Shown here piece by piece: positions 31,601 through 47,100 of a DNA stretch of 64,000 nt (the stretch's first letter is position 1; each line of letters starts with the position of its first letter). The stretch lies in NCBI RefSeq assembly GCF_963853765.1, contig NC_088854.1, positions 41,912,001 to 41,976,000 on the forward strand, read 5' to 3'. This DNA is from Magallana gigas (Eukaryota). The position numbers are program-made.

Positions 31601-32124
31601 TTCAACATGCCTTTCATTATCAAACAAATAGAAGAAGAAAGAAAAATCAAAAATTCATTTCACTTTATTCCAGTATTAGAAATAAGTTTTGCAATTATTC
31701 TTTGAGCTTTTTCATCAATCATACATTCATCTGCGTCTCGAGCTAGAAAGCTCTTTTCACGTGGAGACACTTTTTCCGACAAATTAATTGGGTCTTTTTC
31801 TGTCACCAAAATGTTTTCTTCTAATCTCACAGCTATTCCTTTGAATAAAGAAAGATTTTCTGGGATGTACTCTGGTCGCAAATATAAACCTAAAATAAAC
31901 AGAACAATTTTTATTCAGAATAAGACACAATAAATTGATGAAAATGGTATAAATCAAATTAATTGACACAATACACTGTGATAAAGTAAAATCATTTACA
32001 TGTTTGTGTTGGGGATAGCATCCAAAGAGTATATTCCCACAGAAAATTGATGAGTTTGACATTTCTTTTTCCTTTTGGTTGATTTTAAATGTAACATATA
32101 CATGTGTATATAAATATCTGCTAC

Positions 32125-32161
<37 letters not shown>

Positions 32162-41100: not shown

Positions 41101-44100
41101 TAATGTAGCAGAAACTCTTTTTGCATTTTTTTTAGCTGAACACAACCTACCATTTTCTGTGTCAGATCACTTTACAAAATTCAAAATCAGCAACTGTTAG
41201 TTAAAATGCTTCTTTGCAATAAAGCATTATACATAAGTTTTTAACACATATTTCTATTGTATATACCTATGAAATGCATGGTAAATATGTCGTGAATGTC
41301 GTTACGCGCTATGACCAGATTTTTTACTTTCCAAATCTGGTCATGACCAGATTTTCACATGTTGGAGGTTGGCAAGTATGCTGTAGGAGTGTTCAGGGTC
41401 TGTTAATCATTTGCGTATGATTTGATTTACAAAGTAAAGTCCATTCTGTAAGACCAGAAGATTTTATCTTAAGTTAACTGTGAATTTTATTTTGTAGGTA
41501 ATTTTGACGAAGCAATGAAACTGTTCACTGAGGCCATCAAGATCAATCCCCACTCTGCTCTACTCTACGCAAAACGAGCCAGGTAGGCTTTCAGATAACC
41601 TTAATTTTGGATACTGTAGATTCCTATTTAAATGCGAAGAATTAATATGCGCATAAAATTGTGAGAAGCATATCTTGCAGTTTTCGAAATCTCGCCTTTT
41701 TTGGGGGGGGGGACAAATGTTACTAAATGAGGCTATGATAAGAATTTAGATTTCGCGATTTTATATTCTAGTGATTTGATGTAAAACGGATGAATTGCAA
41801 AAATAATAACTCACGTTAAACAAGGAATCAACTGTAACCATATTTATTTTTCTTTAAATACACTATAAACAATTGATTTTGAAATTATGGTAACTTAATT
41901 CTTTGTCTCCATTGTAGCATTTTTATCAAACAGAAGAAACCAAACAAAGCTATTCACGATTGTTCAAAAGCTATTCAACTCAACCCTGACTCCGCCCAAC
42001 CTTACAAGTGGAGGGGGAGAGCCCAGCAGTAAGCATATTTCTGTACTAGTTCTTCTGATGTAGCAGATTTTGAACATGCATATATTTAGAGGTTGCAAAT
42101 AGTTGTCGGTTATCATGATCAGACAGCCGCAAAACTCCACATTAACTGAAAAAGATGCAGAAAATATAAGAGCAAAAAAGGTCCTGATAGTTACATAACG
42201 TTATTGAAAATGGTTGCATTATTCTATCAAGATTCATGTAGTGAGTAGGTGATGTATGATTTAAAAATGAATAATTTTACTTTTGAACTACATGTAAGTC
42301 TATCTCTCTGTGCAGATTGCTTGGAAAGTGGGAGGAAGCTTACCATGACTTGACTATGGCATGCAAGTTAGATTTCGATGACTTGGCCAATGAATGGCTG
42401 CATGAAGTTTCTCCTAATGTGAGTGTCTGATATTTGAATGGGTTAATGTGTCTTGAAAATTGTTTTACAATTACATATAATTCATGCATGCATTTCAACT
42501 GAAAATAAATGATCGGGGGCAGCAGAATTGACTAGAAAATGTCAATATCAGTCTGTAAAATAAGTGTTGATTGAAACTGATTAAATGCAGGCGAAGAAAA
42601 TAATGGAGCATAACAGGAAATATGAAAGGAAAAGGGAAGAAAAGGAAATAAAGGCCAGGAAGGAGAGGATGAGAAAAGCAAAGGAGGAATATGAAAGAGC
42701 GAAAGCAGTAAGAACTATTCTTTATTCCCAAAGTTTTCTATGGTTTCTCTTTCATCATCTGTATTGAAAGTTTTAGTTTGTTGATATGTAATCTTACATA
42801 TTACATACCTGTCTGTCAGCAGGAGAGTACAAGCAGTGGCGGTGGGGGATTTGGAGGTTTTCCAGGAGGATTCCCAGGGGGATTCCCAGGAGGCATGGGT
42901 GGAATGCCTGGAGGCATGGGTGGTATGCCAGGGGGCATGGGTGGTATGCCAGGGGGCATGGGTGGTATGCCAGGAGGCATGGGCGGAATGCCAGGAGGCA
43001 TGGGTGGTATGCCAGGAGGCATGGGTGGAATGCCAGGAGGCATGGGCGGAATGCCAGGTGGAATGGGCGGAATGCCAGGAGGCATGGGAGGTAAATCAAC
43101 TTGGAGATTTCTTCTAGTATTAACTTGATAATCAAACTATTGAACAAACTGAGCAAAATTCAGAACACACAATGATAGCTAGTTTTAGGTTATGATAAAC
43201 TAAGATGGTTAAAACAAAGCTTTCTAAACTCTTCAGCAACTTTTAAACTTGCATTTCATAACTGAATACTGCAAATTGCCTGATAAAATGATATGTTCAT
43301 GATGTATCTTGACCATAAAGAATGCTCTTACATTTTTATCCTGTATATTTTTTGAATTTTCTATATTGTACACTTGATTATATTGATATCAACCAATATT
43401 CTCTCAACTTGAATTGAGATTAATTGGTTTGCAGTAAGCAATGTCAGTAATAATTTTTAATGTTTATTTTGCCCAAAACTCAAAATCTTTTTCTTAATAT
43501 CAACAGGAATGCCAAACTTGGGAAATATATTGAATGATCCAGAAATTGTGCAAGCTTTTGGAGTAAGCAGTCATTTTCTTTTTTCTGCTCTTTTATGGCT
43601 TTTTTTAGAATGGCAAGATCAAAATGAATTATTGCTCAAGTTAGTGCACTGTATATGGACCACAGTTTAATGTGGAAGTTATGTTAATGTGTTAAGTTAA
43701 TGTGTAAGTTATTGGTCATAAACCTAGTGTTTGATGAAACGACAGTTCATGTGCAATATACTGTTGATGTTAAACCACAGCATGTGACTGTTAATGTTAT
43801 CGGGAAACTAAGTAGGCTAAGCAAAGACCTGGTAATGTTAAACTACAGTATGTGGAGCATAGACTGTTAATTTTAGACTACAGTATGTGGAGCATAGACT
43901 GTTAATTTTAGACTACAGTATGTGGAGCATAGACTGTAATGTTAATGCTGTGGTTAGATGCTTCTACAGTATAACATCAAGTACTGTAGATTCGTATTAC
44001 CGTAAACACCTGGAATTAACATCTGTGTAAAATCGCAAAAAGCACATCTCATAGATTTTAAAATGCCACTTGTATTCTTCGGAAAGATGTAAACTAAATG

Positions 44101-47100
44101 AAACTGTGATAAAAATTTGGCGCTTATGATTTTATATACTTGCAATTTGATGCAAAACAGTTGAATTGCAGAATTAAATACTCGTAAAATAAGGAATATA
44201 CAGAAAAGACATTTGATGTTAATGCTGTCATATGATTGGACAGGACCCTGAGGTGGCTGCAGCATTCCAGGACATCAGCCAGAACCCTCAGAACATGATG
44301 AAGTACCAGGACAACCCCAAGGTTCAGGCCCTCATCAACAAGATGGCCACCAAGTTCGGGGGCAAACCACCGGGAGGAGAAGGGGGACCCACGGTAGGTT
44401 CATAACTCAATAACTGTAACTTTTAATGACCTCACAATGGATCGTGCTAAATATTTGTATCAATTCACAAGAGCTCACATTTTATTTTTGTATGAATTAT
44501 TGTTATTATTGAGTACATGTACTATTATTCCTTATTTCTGTACATGATGAGTAGAATTAGGGGCACCAATGGTGAGTTAAAAATCAGTCAATGTTTACAG
44601 TAACTTTGAATAAATTAATATATTTATATATATTTTTTAATTCCTTTAAAAATGGTAGACAAGAGGTTGACTAAACCCTAATATATTTAATTTTTAACAG
44701 TAATTATGAAATACCTTTTAAGAAAAATAATGTTGATTTGTTTAGAATGCACAGCATTTGAATAAAGTTTTAACATGTGAAATCAATACACTATATCTTT
44801 TTAAATTTTTGCAGGTTTAAAGTCATGGAATTATTCAGAACTCAAGATGATCGAAACATGCATTATGAACATAAGTGTGAGCTGCATTATTCTGAAATAT
44901 TTGTATTCTCATACTGACAGTGTATCATCTCTTTCTATATATGATAATATACTGGTATATAAAGTACTTGTAGTTGGTATTTTACATCAAATTTGGATCT
45001 TCATCACGATGTATGGAATTCTTGAATTGTTGTTACAGTAGATGTGTTTTTTTAAATAATAAACTGCATACATTAATAACGTTTGAAAATTCCCATAGTT
45101 GCTAGGTATTCTTACTAATTTTTTGTAATGTTTACTTTGGCACATACCACGTATAGCATAATACACAAAGTCCTTAGATGTTTTTTTGTAAACTGCCTTT
45201 ACCTACTTGAAATGTTGAACAATGCTTTTATCCTTACATTTTTTTTTTTAAATCTTGTGAGTTTTCATTTCCAATTCATTTACATTTCTAACCAACCCTT
45301 TGAGACTTTTTAAATTGTACTGATTTAACCTCGTTATGGTTGTAAATAAGCCATCATAAAGTTCAAGTGTTTATGATTTCATTTTTGATTGTTCAGTGAT
45401 ATTTTTTATTAAAAGCTTAAAATGTTTAGTATGTTAATCTTGCATACGATTCAAAGTGGAACATTTTGGTAGCTTGTATCATTTATTATTGGTATTTGAT
45501 GGTTGATTTGTTTTCAATAAAGATATATTACCAAATCAAACTACAGATTATTTGCTTTAACATTGTGATGAAAATTACATTGGGGCAATTGTACCCATAC
45601 ATGTACATGTAGTATGTTTGTTGTGTATATGAGGATTGTGCAATGCAAGCTTGCTCATTCATATGACTATCAATTGATTCAAACCATTTAATTTTAAGTA
45701 CAAACTACACATAATTATACTTGACATGGATGAATCCCAAACTTTGAATTTATAGGAGTGGGTGTAGTGATTTGTAATACTAGTGTATTTTGATATCAAA
45801 ATAATACAGATTACTTATAGTTATATCATTACCACTATTGCATATTTTACAGTGTACACAGGAATGTGGATTTCATTGATAAAACATAGTAATGATAATG
45901 GGTTTTTTTATACCCCCTGCAAACAAAGTTTGGGAGGATTTATATGAATCACCTTGTCCATTGGTTGATGCAGTTGTGTACAGTTCATATCTTTATTATG
46001 GAGTTACACTTTACACAAAGATTGTATATAACCTGATGGTGTTTCAAGATTTTGACCCAAGATCATTTAAGCAAGTTCATGGTCACACGGAAGTAAAAGT
46101 GCATTATTTGTGTCTGGCTTATACCTGTCTTATGGAGAAACATTAGAAATTTCCACTTCACACAAACATAAGGATGTGCCATGGTTTTGAACCAAGGTCA
46201 TTCACGCAAGTTCAAGGTCGATGGAAGTAAAAGTGCATAATTCTTGTCTGCTCTATACCTTTCTTATGGGAACCCACTGTAAGTTTCTACTTCACACAAA
46301 GATTGCTTATGGCCTGATGGCGTGCCATGACCAGGCATGGGGTAATCGTAATTGAGTAATCGTAATCGATTGTAATGATTATTCTTTTTCAAGTAATCGA
46401 CAGTAATCTGTAATCGAAGAGATTTTTGATTACTTGTAATCGTAATTTAATCGATTACAGCTAAAGAGTTCAGTGTAATTATAATTACTTTTTCGATTAC
46501 TTTCAATTACTCTTGACATAATCATATTGCAACGTGATGCACTTATTGTATGAAAAAATACTCTTCAAGTGTTGTTTATTTTACAATTCATAGAATAAAA
46601 TTGTTTATATTCATTTTTTTTATGATTTTCCACTTTCACTTAAAATATAAATATTGGTTCACATGTCATTGAGTATATAATCAGTTTACCGGTACTCCGT
46701 GTTTCACAATTCTTTGCAGAATGTTTTAATTATTTAACATAGAGATTTTGTGTCTATTTTGCCAGAGAAAAAAGCAAAAGGGTAAATGTCACTAAGTGTG
46801 TTTGTCCTTGTCAGGTAATGAATCCACAAAGCAGTTAATGAGGTGTGACCACTCTAATCATGTTTAGATAACAATTAAAATACTCCCAACAAGGATCTAT
46901 TTTAAAAATCAAAACAATTACAAGCTCTAAACACAATTCATTCAAATTATGAAGCAAGGCTGCCTAAAAGTTCTTTGCATATTTCCAATGATATTTTTAA
47001 AAATTATGAAATTTCAATCAAATTCCAATTCTCGAGATATAACCAATAACAACTGATTAATTAAATATGATGGCAAAAGGTGCAAGGTCAAGATTTCATC

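What the first reader, a model, noticed from the sequence alone, without database searches (positions are those of the whole stretch)
31660..44820. XPNPEP3-ST13 head-to-head pair matches the human arrangement
Seen: XPNPEP3 (-) and ST13 (+) are adjacent and divergent. Both first coding exons are preceded by splice acceptors (35610 and 38755), so both have upstream non-coding exons. Candidate donors face outward at 37330 (minus, CAG|GTATGA) and 37426 (plus, weak), about 100 bp apart. Established (recalled): human ST13 and XPNPEP3 are immediate head-to-head neighbours on 22q13. Inference: a bidirectional pair kept since the protostome-deuterostome ancestor, linking a cytosolic Hsp70 co-chaperone with a mitochondrial presequence-processing peptidase. 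This would be a candidate ancient co-regulated proteostasis unit.
Basis: partly seen in the sequence, partly recalled or inferred. Interest (0 to 1): 0.65.

Follow-up and report, generated by a model that had tools for sequence, protein, structure and literature searches.

The report
Head-to-head ST13–XPNPEP3 gene pair
Two ordinary housekeeping genes, an Hsp70 helper protein and a mitochondrial peptidase, sit back to back in this bivalve genome as they also do in an oyster, sea turtles and monkeys, which is probably an old but familiar kind of gene neighbourhood.

Summary
XPNPEP3 is on the minus strand (CDS 35527→31660, 7 coding exons). ST13/Hip is on the plus strand (CDS 38773→44405, 11 coding exons). 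They are divergent, with 3,245 bp between the start codons and no other gene between them.

Acceptor-like sites lie just upstream of both start codons. CpG depletion of both gene bodies runs past both start codons, up to a 1.7-kb CpG-retaining block at 36612-38320. This fits 5'-UTR introns and start sites inside that block.

The two proposed donors are not above chance. The minus-strand donor at 37330 is a good site, but such sites occur once per 2.3 kb. The plus-strand donor at 37426 is weak, and such sites occur once per 349 nt.

The pair is also adjacent in the oyster Saccostrea cucullata and in sea turtles (consecutive accessions on shared contigs). It is divergent in Old World monkeys (PMC10415907). 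No other phylum could be checked, and the flanking genes are not the human ones.

Verdict: a probable ancient conserved head-to-head pair, which is a known kind. Co-regulation is untested. Interest is modest.

The parts
31660..35610 (-). XPNPEP3 orthologue (mitochondrial Icp55-type aminopeptidase P). Exons: 35610-35512 (5'UTR plus 16 nt of CDS, ATG at 35527), 35166-34421, 34100-34007, 33526-33392, 32834-32650, 32356-32236, 31889-31660 (stop at 31662-31660).
   Evidence: Pfam AMP_N and Peptidase_M24. PDB 5x49 is the best match. A 508-aa database protein, P0001, matches the exons at 79-100% identity per aligned piece (97-100% where a piece does not run past an exon edge) and starts MMALQK, which confirms the exon 1/2 junction. 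Boundaries were read.
35528..35610 (-). 5'UTR part of the first coding exon of XPNPEP3. It has an acceptor-like site (12 of 17 pyrimidines, then CAG) and three upstream ATGs in one frame, which end at a stop about 30 nt before the main ATG.
   Evidence: Acceptor-like sites this good occur once per 416 nt of strand, so this one alone is weak evidence.
35911..36211 (.). Tandem repeat with a 108-bp period and 2.8 copies, with 36- and 12-bp sub-periods. It lies in the CpG-poor stretch upstream of XPNPEP3 exon 1.
36612..38320 (.). CpG-retaining block, the inferred unmethylated promoter region for both genes. Scored over 36600-38330 it has 41 CpG and o/e 0.74. The flanks are CpG-poor: 35528-36599 has 3 CpG (o/e 0.11) and 38331-38772 has 2 CpG (o/e 0.14).
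   Evidence: Poisson P is 4e-6 for the left flank and 2e-3 for the right. GpC o/e is 0.83-1.12 in all three segments, so the depletion is specific to CpG.
37322..37330 (-). The last exon base would be 37330.
   Evidence: Score 8.4. 3 of 181 sites in the region are as good, and the window rate is one per 2,286 nt. Plausible but not distinguishable from chance.
37424..37432 (+). The last exon base would be 37426.
   Evidence: Score 5.35. 11 of 156 sites in the region are as good, and the window rate is one per 349 nt. This is chance level.
37578..37628 (.). Cluster near the middle of the block. It holds an E-box, CACGTG (37578), and two heat-shock-element-like sites with one mismatch each (37584-37596 and 37611-37628).
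   Evidence: By my own grouping's rows, 3 one-mismatch HSE-like loci lie in 36550-38773 against about 1.2 expected, which is not significant.
38026..38153 (.). Near-perfect palindrome with 50-nt arms (94% complementary) and a 28-nt centre. Each arm carries a YY1-like CGCCATGTT motif.
   Evidence: Rfam gives only a sub-threshold miRNA-like match (20.5 bits against a gathering score of 57). Its nature is unknown; it may be a foldback or mobile element, or a promoter element.
38261..38278 (+). A perfect CRE, TGACGTCA (38261), followed by TATAAAG (38272). It sits about 40-60 bp before the right edge of the CpG block and is the best core-promoter-like site for ST13.
   Evidence: CRE found once against 0.17 expected; TATAAA found 3 times against 5.35 expected, so it is not enriched. 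Position relative to the last CpG (38320) is. The motif names are recalled consensus sequences.
38756..44405 (+). ST13/Hip orthologue. Exons: 38756-38888 (ATG at 38773), 39144-39189, 39650-39737, 40100-40237, 41498-41582, 41918-42028, 42316-42418, 42591-42707, 42820-43090 (Gly/Met/Pro repeats), 43507-43562, 44244-44405 (stop at 44403-44405).
   Evidence: Pfam HipN, TPR and STI1 DP. PDB 4j8c. tblastn of Saccostrea Hip, P0008, against the window. Boundaries were read. The acceptor at 38756 has 13 of 17 pyrimidines, as good as or better than all 10 internal ST13 acceptors (7-13). Such sites occur once per 1,066 nt.
40300..41100 (.). CpG-rich insert (o/e 1.13, 33 CpG) inside ST13 intron 4. It is probably a young insertion.
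   Evidence: Two ORFs from it have no Pfam match.

Best explanation
The stretch holds two intact, intron-containing housekeeping genes transcribed away from each other.
- XPNPEP3 is the animal counterpart of yeast Icp55. Icp55 trims one residue from imported mitochondrial proteins after presequence cleavage (recalled).
- ST13/Hip stabilises the ADP-bound state of Hsp70 (recalled).

What is shown:
- The start codons are 3,245 bp apart and nothing else is encoded between them.
- Both gene bodies are strongly depleted of CpG, the mutational footprint of germline gene-body methylation.
- The depletion continues past both start codons, up to a 1.7-kb block (36612-38320) that has kept its CpGs.
- The same two genes are neighbours in an oyster and in sea turtles, and divergent neighbours in Old World monkeys.

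What I infer:
- Both genes start transcription inside the CpG-retaining block, at most about 1.7 kb apart.
- Each reaches its first coding exon through a 5'-UTR intron, using the acceptors at 35610 and 38756.
- The start sites are either at the two edges of the block or together near its middle. A CRE followed by TATAAAG at 38261-38278 fits an ST13 start near 38300.
- The pair is most likely an ancestral bilaterian neighbourhood. It was kept because a break between the genes would cut through one compact promoter region serving both.
For: Gene identity and models.

No gene between them: 8 intergenic ORFs gave no Pfam family above its cut-off, Rfam gave no match at gathering score, and no tRNA was found.

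CpG pattern:
- XPNPEP3 body o/e 0.38 and ST13 5' part 0.19, against 0.72 for 36550-38349.
- The flanks 35528-36599 and 38331-38772 hold 3 and 2 CpG where 19.7 and 10.4 are expected at the core rate (P = 4e-6 and 2e-3).

Need for introns:
- 14 ATGs lie in 38300-38772, but none in 38756-38772.
- 41 ATGs lie on the minus strand of 36650-35528.
- The acceptor at 38756 is as good as or better than all 10 internal ST13 acceptors.

Neighbourhood elsewhere:
- Saccostrea cucullata: Hip XP_062597482-487 and XPNPEP3-like XP_062597488, both on a 180,379-bp contig.
- Chelonia mydas: EMP41850 (Hip) and EMP41851 (XPNPEP3) on a 2,774,225-bp scaffold.
- Caretta caretta: CAM2097993 and CAM2097994.
- Eretmochelys: both on a 361,961,700-bp chromosome.
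- Macaca, Cercocebus and Rhinopithecus: '< ST13' beside '> XPNPEP3' (PMC10415907, table passages).

Context from papers:
- 54.8% of conserved ancestral neighbour pairs are 5'-5' in human, against 26.7% of controls (PMC3514665, passages).
- A preprint's list of top human HSF1 targets from ChIP-Atlas gives 'XPNPEP3 ST13' as one entry, beside HSPE1 and HSPD1 (10.1101/2022.06.13.494714, passage).
Against: - No transcript, cap or methylation data were available, so every start site and 5'-UTR exon is inferred.
- The CpG block contains a tRNA-like (SINE-like) stretch that I saw by eye, and a palindrome. Part of its CpG content may therefore come from young insertions rather than from an unmethylated promoter. 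The CpG-rich insert in ST13 intron 4 shows that this happens here.
- The donor candidates are at chance level.
- There is no perfect three-unit heat-shock element in the core (0 found). One-mismatch sites are not significantly enriched.
- Only two phyla are documented.
- Orientation in Saccostrea and in turtles is not known from my calls. That accession order reflects gene order is my recollection, although the turtle data fit it.
- None of the other genes in the window match the human 22q13 neighbours as I recall them (SLC25A17, RBX1, EP300). The window holds a kinase exon I take for CDK7 by eye, a 6-phosphogluconolactonase-type gene, CDC73, a 1037-aa ORF and ankyrin-repeat genes.
- A human brain co-expression study nominated XPNPEP3 as a candidate for autism and ST13 for language impairment, two separate gene sets (PMC10671420, passages).
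Confidence: 0.6

Rival explanations
1. Ancestral linkage without shared regulation. The two genes have been neighbours since early bilaterians only because no rearrangement has separated them in slowly rearranging lineages. Each has its own promoter, at the two edges of the CpG block about 1.7 kb apart, and their expression is independent.
For: - The edges of CpG depletion (36612 and 38320) lie 1.7 kb apart, and oyster methylation rises sharply right after start sites.
- A CRE followed by TATAAAG sits just inside the right edge.
- There is no significant shared motif and no full heat-shock element.
- The two genes were nominated for different traits in a human brain co-expression study.
Against: - Head-to-head pairs are strongly over-represented among deeply conserved neighbour pairs, and their orientation is preferentially kept. 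This argues for constraint rather than drift (PMC3514665, passages).
- In human the pair appears as one entry in a list of top HSF1 targets.
Confidence: 0.22
2. Coincidence or convergence. The bivalve adjacency and the vertebrate adjacency arose independently, and the pair was not linked in the bilaterian ancestor.
For: - Only molluscs (two bivalves) and amniotes are documented.
- I looked up 26 XPNPEP3 representatives and 14 carried a species name. Only the turtle cluster also gave a position for ST13, so there are no data for any third phylum.
- No flanking gene is shared with the human region (the human neighbours are recalled).
- From memory, unverified: the two orthologues are on different chromosomes in Drosophila and C. 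elegans.
Against: - My own estimate, an inference: with about 20,000 genes in random order, a named pair is adjacent and divergent with probability about 2.5e-5. Even allowing all neighbour pairs of a genome and conserved chromosome-scale linkage, tens of chance matches would compete with the several hundred conserved pairs reported in PMC3514665.
- The adjacency has already survived the split between this species and Saccostrea, whose XPNPEP3 exon 2 is only 66% identical.
Confidence: 0.13
3. No upstream non-coding exons. Both genes start transcription immediately upstream of their first coding exons. The acceptor-like motifs are chance features of AT-rich DNA, and the intergenic space is 3 kb of repeats.
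For: - Acceptor-like sites as good as the one at 35610 occur once per 416 nt.
- The space holds a 108-bp tandem repeat and a palindrome, and a tRNA-like stretch that I saw by eye.
- The donor candidates are at chance level.
Against: - CpG depletion, which is specific to CpG and not GpC, continues 1.1 kb and 0.45 kb beyond the two start codons.
- The ST13 acceptor lies 17 nt before the ATG and is as strong as the best internal acceptor. Such sites occur once per 1,066 nt.
Confidence: 0.2

Closest known systems
Vertebrate ST13-XPNPEP3 head-to-head pair (human 22q13 recalled; Old World monkeys in PMC10415907; turtles by accession order)
   Same: The same two orthologues are immediate neighbours, and in monkeys they are transcribed divergently. 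In human the pair is listed as one entry among top HSF1 targets (10.1101/2022.06.13.494714, passage).
   Different: In the window the start codons are 3.2 kb apart. The space holds repeats and no vertebrate-type GC-rich CpG island (GC 36%, CpG o/e 0.74). No perfect heat-shock element was found. The flanking genes differ from the human ones. I recall a spacing of a few hundred bp between the human start sites, but I did not check it.
HSPD1-HSPE1 (Hsp60/Hsp10) bidirectional pair
   Same: It is a head-to-head pair of proteostasis genes. It is reported as conserved from human to a unicellular relative of animals, with a shared promoter and high co-expression (PMC3514665, passage). It appears in the same HSF1 target list as XPNPEP3/ST13.
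   Different: HSPD1 and HSPE1 act in one complex in one compartment, and their co-expression is measured (r = 0.81). ST13 is cytosolic and XPNPEP3 mitochondrial, with no known physical or pathway link. Their co-expression is not shown.
Conserved ancestral microsyntenic pairs (CAMPs) of the co-regulated 5'-5' class, Irimia et al. 2012 (PMC3514665)
   Same: These are unrelated neighbouring genes kept together across phyla, mostly divergent and with short intergenic distance.
   Different: That class is defined on many lineages; here only two phyla are documented. XPNPEP3 does not occur in the main text.

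Membership tests
XPNPEP3 / Icp55 (mitochondrial M24B aminopeptidase P) | AMP_N N-terminal domain followed by a Peptidase_M24 'pita-bread' domain | tested here: met
   AMP_N scores 1.5e-26 on exon 2. Peptidase_M24 scores 1.7e-11 and 4.2e-9 on two later exons, both above the curated cut-off, and 0.02 (below the cut-off) on a third. All were searched exon by exon.
XPNPEP3 / Icp55 (mitochondrial M24B aminopeptidase P) | Closer to XPNPEP3 than to the paralogues (prolidase, XPNPEP1) or to bacterial PepP | tested here: met
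   exon 2: 5x49 human XPNPEP3 at 1.2e-23, PepP at 8e-11, Icp55 at 1.3e-6, prolidase at 3e-4; the nearest named proteins are 'xaa-Pro aminopeptidase 3-like' of Saccostrea (66%) and Ostrea (60%). On the short catalytic exon, XPNPEP3 and bacterial enzymes tie.
XPNPEP3 / Icp55 (mitochondrial M24B aminopeptidase P) | N-terminal mitochondrial presequence | tested here: inconclusive
   The first 30 residues have 6 K/R, 0 D/E and 6 S/T. This is presequence-like in composition. No targeting predictor was run and no localisation data exist.
XPNPEP3 / Icp55 (mitochondrial M24B aminopeptidase P) | Five metal-binding residues (Asp, Asp, His, Glu, Glu) | tested here: inconclusive
   Motifs that contain them can be read in the exon translations. 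Their assignment rests on my recollection of the family, not on an alignment scored here.
ST13 / Hip (Hsc70-interacting protein) | HipN dimerisation domain, TPR repeats, charged linker, Gly/Met/Pro repeats and a C-terminal STI1 DP domain, in that order | tested here: met
   HipN 2.7e-15, TPR_1 4.6e-7, STI1-HOP_DP 9.3e-8; 4j8c; repeat exon 42820-43090; collinear with Saccostrea Hip over all exons.
Bidirectional-promoter gene pair (start sites on opposite strands less than 1 kb apart) | Divergent orientation with no gene in between | tested here: met
Bidirectional-promoter gene pair (start sites on opposite strands less than 1 kb apart) | Transcription start sites less than 1 kb apart | not testable with these tools
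   No transcript or cap data were available. The start codons are 3,245 bp apart. The CpG pattern bounds the start sites to a 1.7-kb block.
Bidirectional-promoter gene pair (start sites on opposite strands less than 1 kb apart) | Correlated expression of the two genes | not testable with these tools
   No expression data exist for this species. The human hints point both ways.
Conserved ancestral microsyntenic pair (bilaterian or older) | Adjacency in several independent lineages on both sides of the protostome-deuterostome split | tested here: inconclusive
   Found in two bivalves (the window; Saccostrea) and in amniotes (turtles; monkeys). Of 26 XPNPEP3 representatives looked up, 14 were named. 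Only the turtle cluster also gave a position for ST13, so no third phylum could be read.
HSF1-controlled heat-shock gene pair | Heat-shock element of three or more alternating GAA/TTC units in the shared upstream region | tested here: inconclusive
   There are 0 perfect three-unit elements in 36550-38773. By my own grouping's rows, 3 one-mismatch loci are found against about 1.2 expected.

The most novel reading that the evidence does not exclude
ST13-XPNPEP3 is a second urbilaterian stress-responsive bidirectional unit of the HSPD1-HSPE1 type. One compact promoter, HSF1-bound in human, has for more than half a billion years coupled the cytosolic Hsp70 cycle, which holds mitochondrial precursors, to the peptidase that finishes their processing after import. 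This shared control is what has kept the two genes together.
Probability: 0.2. Interest if true: 0.55.

Novelty: new member of a known kind. Interest (0 to 1): 0.3.

Why it matters
If the pair proves to be linked across many phyla, it adds one more deeply conserved head-to-head pair. Unusually, its two products work in different compartments of the same protein-import route. That gives a concrete hypothesis to test: joint control of precursor chaperoning and presequence trimming.

As it stands, this is a well-annotated example of a common genome feature. It also shows that CpG depletion can bound promoter positions in a bivalve when no transcript data are at hand.

Tried and rejected
1. Reading gene order in other animals directly was not possible.

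2. As a proxy I compared contig lengths and accession numbers of the two proteins per species.
- The ST13 list (best 120 of 1,136 hits) and 26 XPNPEP3 representatives (10, 7, 9; 14 with a species name) overlapped only in turtles.
- Saccostrea came from the earlier exon searches.
- So this proxy says nothing, for or against, about arthropods, flatworms, nematodes or cnidarians.
- A quick tree of the representatives served only to choose which ones to look up.

3. Literature. Three searches found no paper that describes ST13-XPNPEP3 as a conserved or bidirectional pair. The 10 papers that hold both names give gene lists, apart from the primate table in PMC10415907. Supplements, including the pair list of PMC3514665, were closed and may already contain this pair.

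4. Rfam found nothing at gathering score in the whole window. At E ≤ 1 the intergenic space gave only a sub-threshold miRNA-like match on the palindrome. ARAGORN found no tRNA, although I see a tRNA-like stretch near 36960-37050 by eye.

5. Pfam on 8 intergenic ORFs gave nothing above a cut-off.

6. A self-comparison of the intergenic space against the window found only its own tandem repeat and one 39-nt match at 57780-57818. Repeat-family membership could therefore not be shown.

7. The promoter motif scan gave no motif clearly above expectation. One search covered the reverse complement's pattern and returned the same 40 sites, so it added nothing.

8. The last XPNPEP3 exon alone has no PDB match at E ≤ 0.01.

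Every search with window sequence was made exon by exon. Full-length comparisons used the database proteins P0001 and P0008 as stand-ins.

Full report
**What the window is.** The window is AT-rich (34% GC). It has two N runs, at 21544-21709 and 58917-59052. Both lie outside the finding and I left them alone. The nearest named proteins are from oysters. For XPNPEP3 exon 2, Saccostrea cucullata is 66% identical and Ostrea edulis 60%. For the last ST13 exon, Saccostrea is 93% identical. I therefore take the source to be a bivalve related to, but distinct from, the true oysters. I did not take it for human.

**How the searches were run.** All searches with window sequence were made exon by exon. 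For full-length comparisons I used two database proteins as stand-ins, P0001 and P0008.

**XPNPEP3.**
- Pfam finds AMP_N on the large exon and Peptidase_M24 on later exons.
- The large exon matches human XPNPEP3 (5x49) at 1.2e-23. E. coli aminopeptidase P scores 8e-11, yeast Icp55 1.3e-6 and prolidase 3e-4.
- A 508-residue protein from an unnamed transcript-sized record (P0001; longest contig 1,582 nt) matches the exons at 79-100% identity per aligned piece, and 97-100% where a piece does not run past an exon edge. It begins MMALQK.
- That start fixes the first junction. Exon 1 contributes only 16 nt of CDS (ATG at 35527, donor after 35512), and exon 2 starts at 35166.
- The seven coding exons run from 35610 to 31660.
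- The first 30 residues have 6 K/R and no D/E, which looks like a presequence.

**ST13/Hip.**
- Pfam finds HipN, TPR and the STI1 DP domain on separate exons.
- The first coding exon matches the Hip N-domain structure 4j8c.
- Saccostrea Hip (P0008) aligns collinearly to the window from 38779 to 44357.
- I read eleven coding exons from 38756 to 44405. The ATG is at 38773.

**Checking the observation.**
- The two genes are divergent, with 3,245 bp between their start codons.
- Nothing else is encoded between them. Eight intergenic ORFs gave no Pfam family above its cut-off, Rfam found nothing at gathering score, and no tRNA was found.
- The ST13 acceptor has 13 of 17 pyrimidines before CAG and lies 17 nt before the ATG. 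That is as good as or better than all ten internal ST13 acceptors (7-13). Such sites occur once per 1,066 nt of strand.
- The XPNPEP3 acceptor has 12 of 17. The six internal XPNPEP3 acceptors have 11-14. Such sites occur once per 416 nt.
- The donor motifs exist but do not stand out. I scored them with a matrix built from recalled textbook frequencies.
- The minus-strand site at 37330 scores 8.4. The 16 donors of my exon models score 1.0-13.5, median 7.5. Three of 181 minus-strand GT sites between the genes score as high. The window has one such site per 2,286 nt.
- The plus-strand site at 37426 scores 5.35. It is matched or beaten by 11 of 156 sites, and the window has one such site per 349 nt.
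- With a matrix built from the 16 modelled donors themselves, the counts are 6 of 181 and 51 of 156.
- Two outward-facing donors 96 bp apart would also require either tiny or overlapping first exons.

- The window is bimodal. The XPNPEP3 and ST13 spans, and the stretches holding the kinase exon, the lactonase-type gene and the later CDC73 exons, have CpG o/e of 0.2-0.4. The right third of the window (the long ORF and the ankyrin genes) is near 1.0.
- Around the pair, depletion does not stop at the start codons.
- 35528-36599 holds 3 CpG (o/e 0.11) and 38331-38772 holds 2 (o/e 0.14). The block between them holds 41 (o/e 0.74).
- At the block's rate, 19.7 and 10.4 CpGs would be expected in the two flanks (P = 4e-6 and 2e-3).
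- GpC is not depleted in any of these segments.
- In Crassostrea gigas, methylation rises sharply after start sites and stays high along gene bodies (PMC4378273, passage).
- I infer from this that both transcription units begin inside 36612-38320. Both would then need 5'-UTR introns.
- The ATG counts support that. A continuous leader from 38300 would carry 14 ATGs, and one from 36650 would carry 41.

**Where exactly the start sites lie stays open.**
- Edge model: a perfect CRE followed by TATAAAG at 38261-38278 lies just inside the right edge. The start sites would then be about 1.7 kb apart.
- Centre model: the block's midpoint is near 37.47 kb. An E-box and two one-mismatch heat-shock-like sites lie at 37578-37628. 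The good minus-strand donor at 37330 would fit a start near there.
- No motif is clearly above chance. CRE is found once against 0.17 expected. There are no perfect three-unit heat-shock elements. By my own grouping's rows, three one-mismatch loci are found against about 1.2 expected.
- The block also contains a 128-bp palindrome and a tRNA-like stretch that I saw by eye. Some of its CpGs may therefore come from young insertions, as in the CpG-rich insert in ST13 intron 4 (o/e 1.13).

**Conservation.** I could not read animal gene order directly. As a proxy I used the contig lengths and accession numbers that the protein collection reports.
- Saccostrea cucullata: the six Hip isoforms are XP_062597482 to 487, and the XPNPEP3-like protein is XP_062597488. 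All are on a contig of 180,379 bp.
- Chelonia mydas: Hip is EMP41850 and XPNPEP3 is EMP41851, on a 2,774,225-bp scaffold.
- Caretta caretta: CAM2097993 and CAM2097994.
- Eretmochelys, Lepidochelys and Caretta: the two proteins share chromosome lengths.
- That accession order follows gene order is my recollection. The turtle data fit it.
- A table in PMC10415907 (passages) places an IFITM pseudogene inside '< ST13', flanked by '< SLC25A17' and '> XPNPEP3', in three Old World monkeys. That is the divergent arrangement.
- For all other phyla the proxy failed. Of 26 XPNPEP3 representatives looked up, 14 carried a species name. Only the turtle cluster also gave a position for ST13.
- The other genes in the window are a kinase exon I take for CDK7 by eye, a 6-phosphogluconolactonase-type gene, CDC73, a 1037-residue ORF and ankyrin-repeat genes. 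They are not the human neighbours as I recall them, so only the pair itself is shared.

**Weighing chance** (my inference). A named pair is adjacent and divergent in a randomly ordered genome of about 20,000 genes with probability near 2.5e-5. Over all neighbour pairs, and allowing for conserved chromosome-scale linkage, tens of chance coincidences between two genomes are conceivable. Irimia et al. report several hundred conserved pairs. Most of those are 5'-5' (54.8% against 26.7% in controls; PMC3514665, passages). I therefore favour ancestry at roughly 0.8. The claim still needs a third and a fourth phylum.

**Function.**
- Nothing here tests co-regulation.
- A preprint's list of top human HSF1 targets from ChIP-Atlas gives 'XPNPEP3 ST13' as one entry, next to HSPE1 and HSPD1 (10.1101/2022.06.13.494714, passage). 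This fits a shared stress-responsive promoter in human.
- A brain co-expression study nominates the two genes as candidates for different traits (PMC10671420, passages).
- In grey mouse lemur liver both proteins fall in late winter, among many others (10.1101/2021.12.22.473832, passages). That carries little weight.

**Comparison and verdict.**
- The nearest known thing is the vertebrate ST13-XPNPEP3 pair itself. The nearest well-studied analogue is the HSPD1-HSPE1 bidirectional pair.
- The finding belongs to the known class of conserved head-to-head neighbour pairs.
- My three literature searches found no paper that names this pair as conserved. The relevant lists are in supplements I could not open.
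- I rate it a new member of a known kind, of modest interest. The boldest reading still open is that it is an ancient heat-shock-type bidirectional unit that links precursor chaperoning to presequence trimming.

Noticed in passing
window 49795-52905 (-): A single uninterrupted ORF of 1037 residues with no Pfam match. It is GC-richer (42-44%) than its surroundings and has CpG o/e near 1.0. By eye it has hydrophobic stretches and an acidic, Lys-rich tail. It converges on ST13.
   Followed up: partly
window 60381-61418 (-) and 62088-62864 (-): Two long ORFs with ankyrin repeats (Pfam Ank_2 at 1.4e-30 and 4e-17). By eye the first ends in a SOCS-box-like tail, so these look like ASB-type genes. They are not CpG-depleted.
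   Followed up: partly
window 23220-26840 (+): CDC73/parafibromin exons (Pfam CDC73_N at 1.3e-16 and 1.7e-28). The stretch 23710-24857, probably an intron, holds a tandemly repeated ORF-like unit of about 55 residues.
   Followed up: partly
window 20357-21090 (-): Two exons that match the glucosamine-6-phosphate isomerase / 6-phosphogluconolactonase family. By eye I take them for PGLS. They lie next to the N run at 21544-21709.
   Followed up: partly
window 9297-9536 (+): A protein-kinase exon (Pfam Pkinase at 3.4e-5, below the cut-off). By eye its sequence resembles CDK7. The surrounding 7-10 kb is CpG-depleted.
   Followed up: no
window 40300-41100: A CpG-rich insert (o/e 1.13) inside the otherwise CpG-poor ST13 intron 4. 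Two ORFs from it have no Pfam match. By eye they resemble transposase-derived proteins.
   Followed up: partly
window 38026-38153: A 128-bp near-perfect palindrome between the two genes. A 39-nt stretch at its right end resembles 57780-57818.
   Followed up: partly
window 42820-43090 (+): The ST13 exon made almost wholly of GGF/GGMP-type repeats. The six Saccostrea Hip isoforms differ in length (360-407 aa), perhaps in this region.
   Followed up: no
window 35528-35610 (-): Three in-frame upstream ATGs form a short upstream ORF in the XPNPEP3 leader. It ends about 30 nt before the main start codon.
   Followed up: no
window 31102-31552 (-): Just downstream of the XPNPEP3 stop, two overlapping ORFs share a near-identical stretch of about 35 residues, so this is a local duplication or repeat. 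CpG o/e here is about 1.0.
   Followed up: no
window 48287-48646: Two perfect heat-shock-element-like 13-mers and one with a single mismatch, all nearly the same sequence, within 360 bp. They are probably copies of one repeat.
   Followed up: no
protein P0140 against window 35014-34246: A 256-residue database protein from the same or a very close species reads through the exon 2 donor into the intron. It is an unspliced or genomic prediction.
   Followed up: partly
protein P0007, Tegillarca granosa: An 857-residue gene model that contains two Hip copies around a phosphoribosyltransferase-like middle part. It is probably a chimeric prediction over a local duplication.
   Followed up: no
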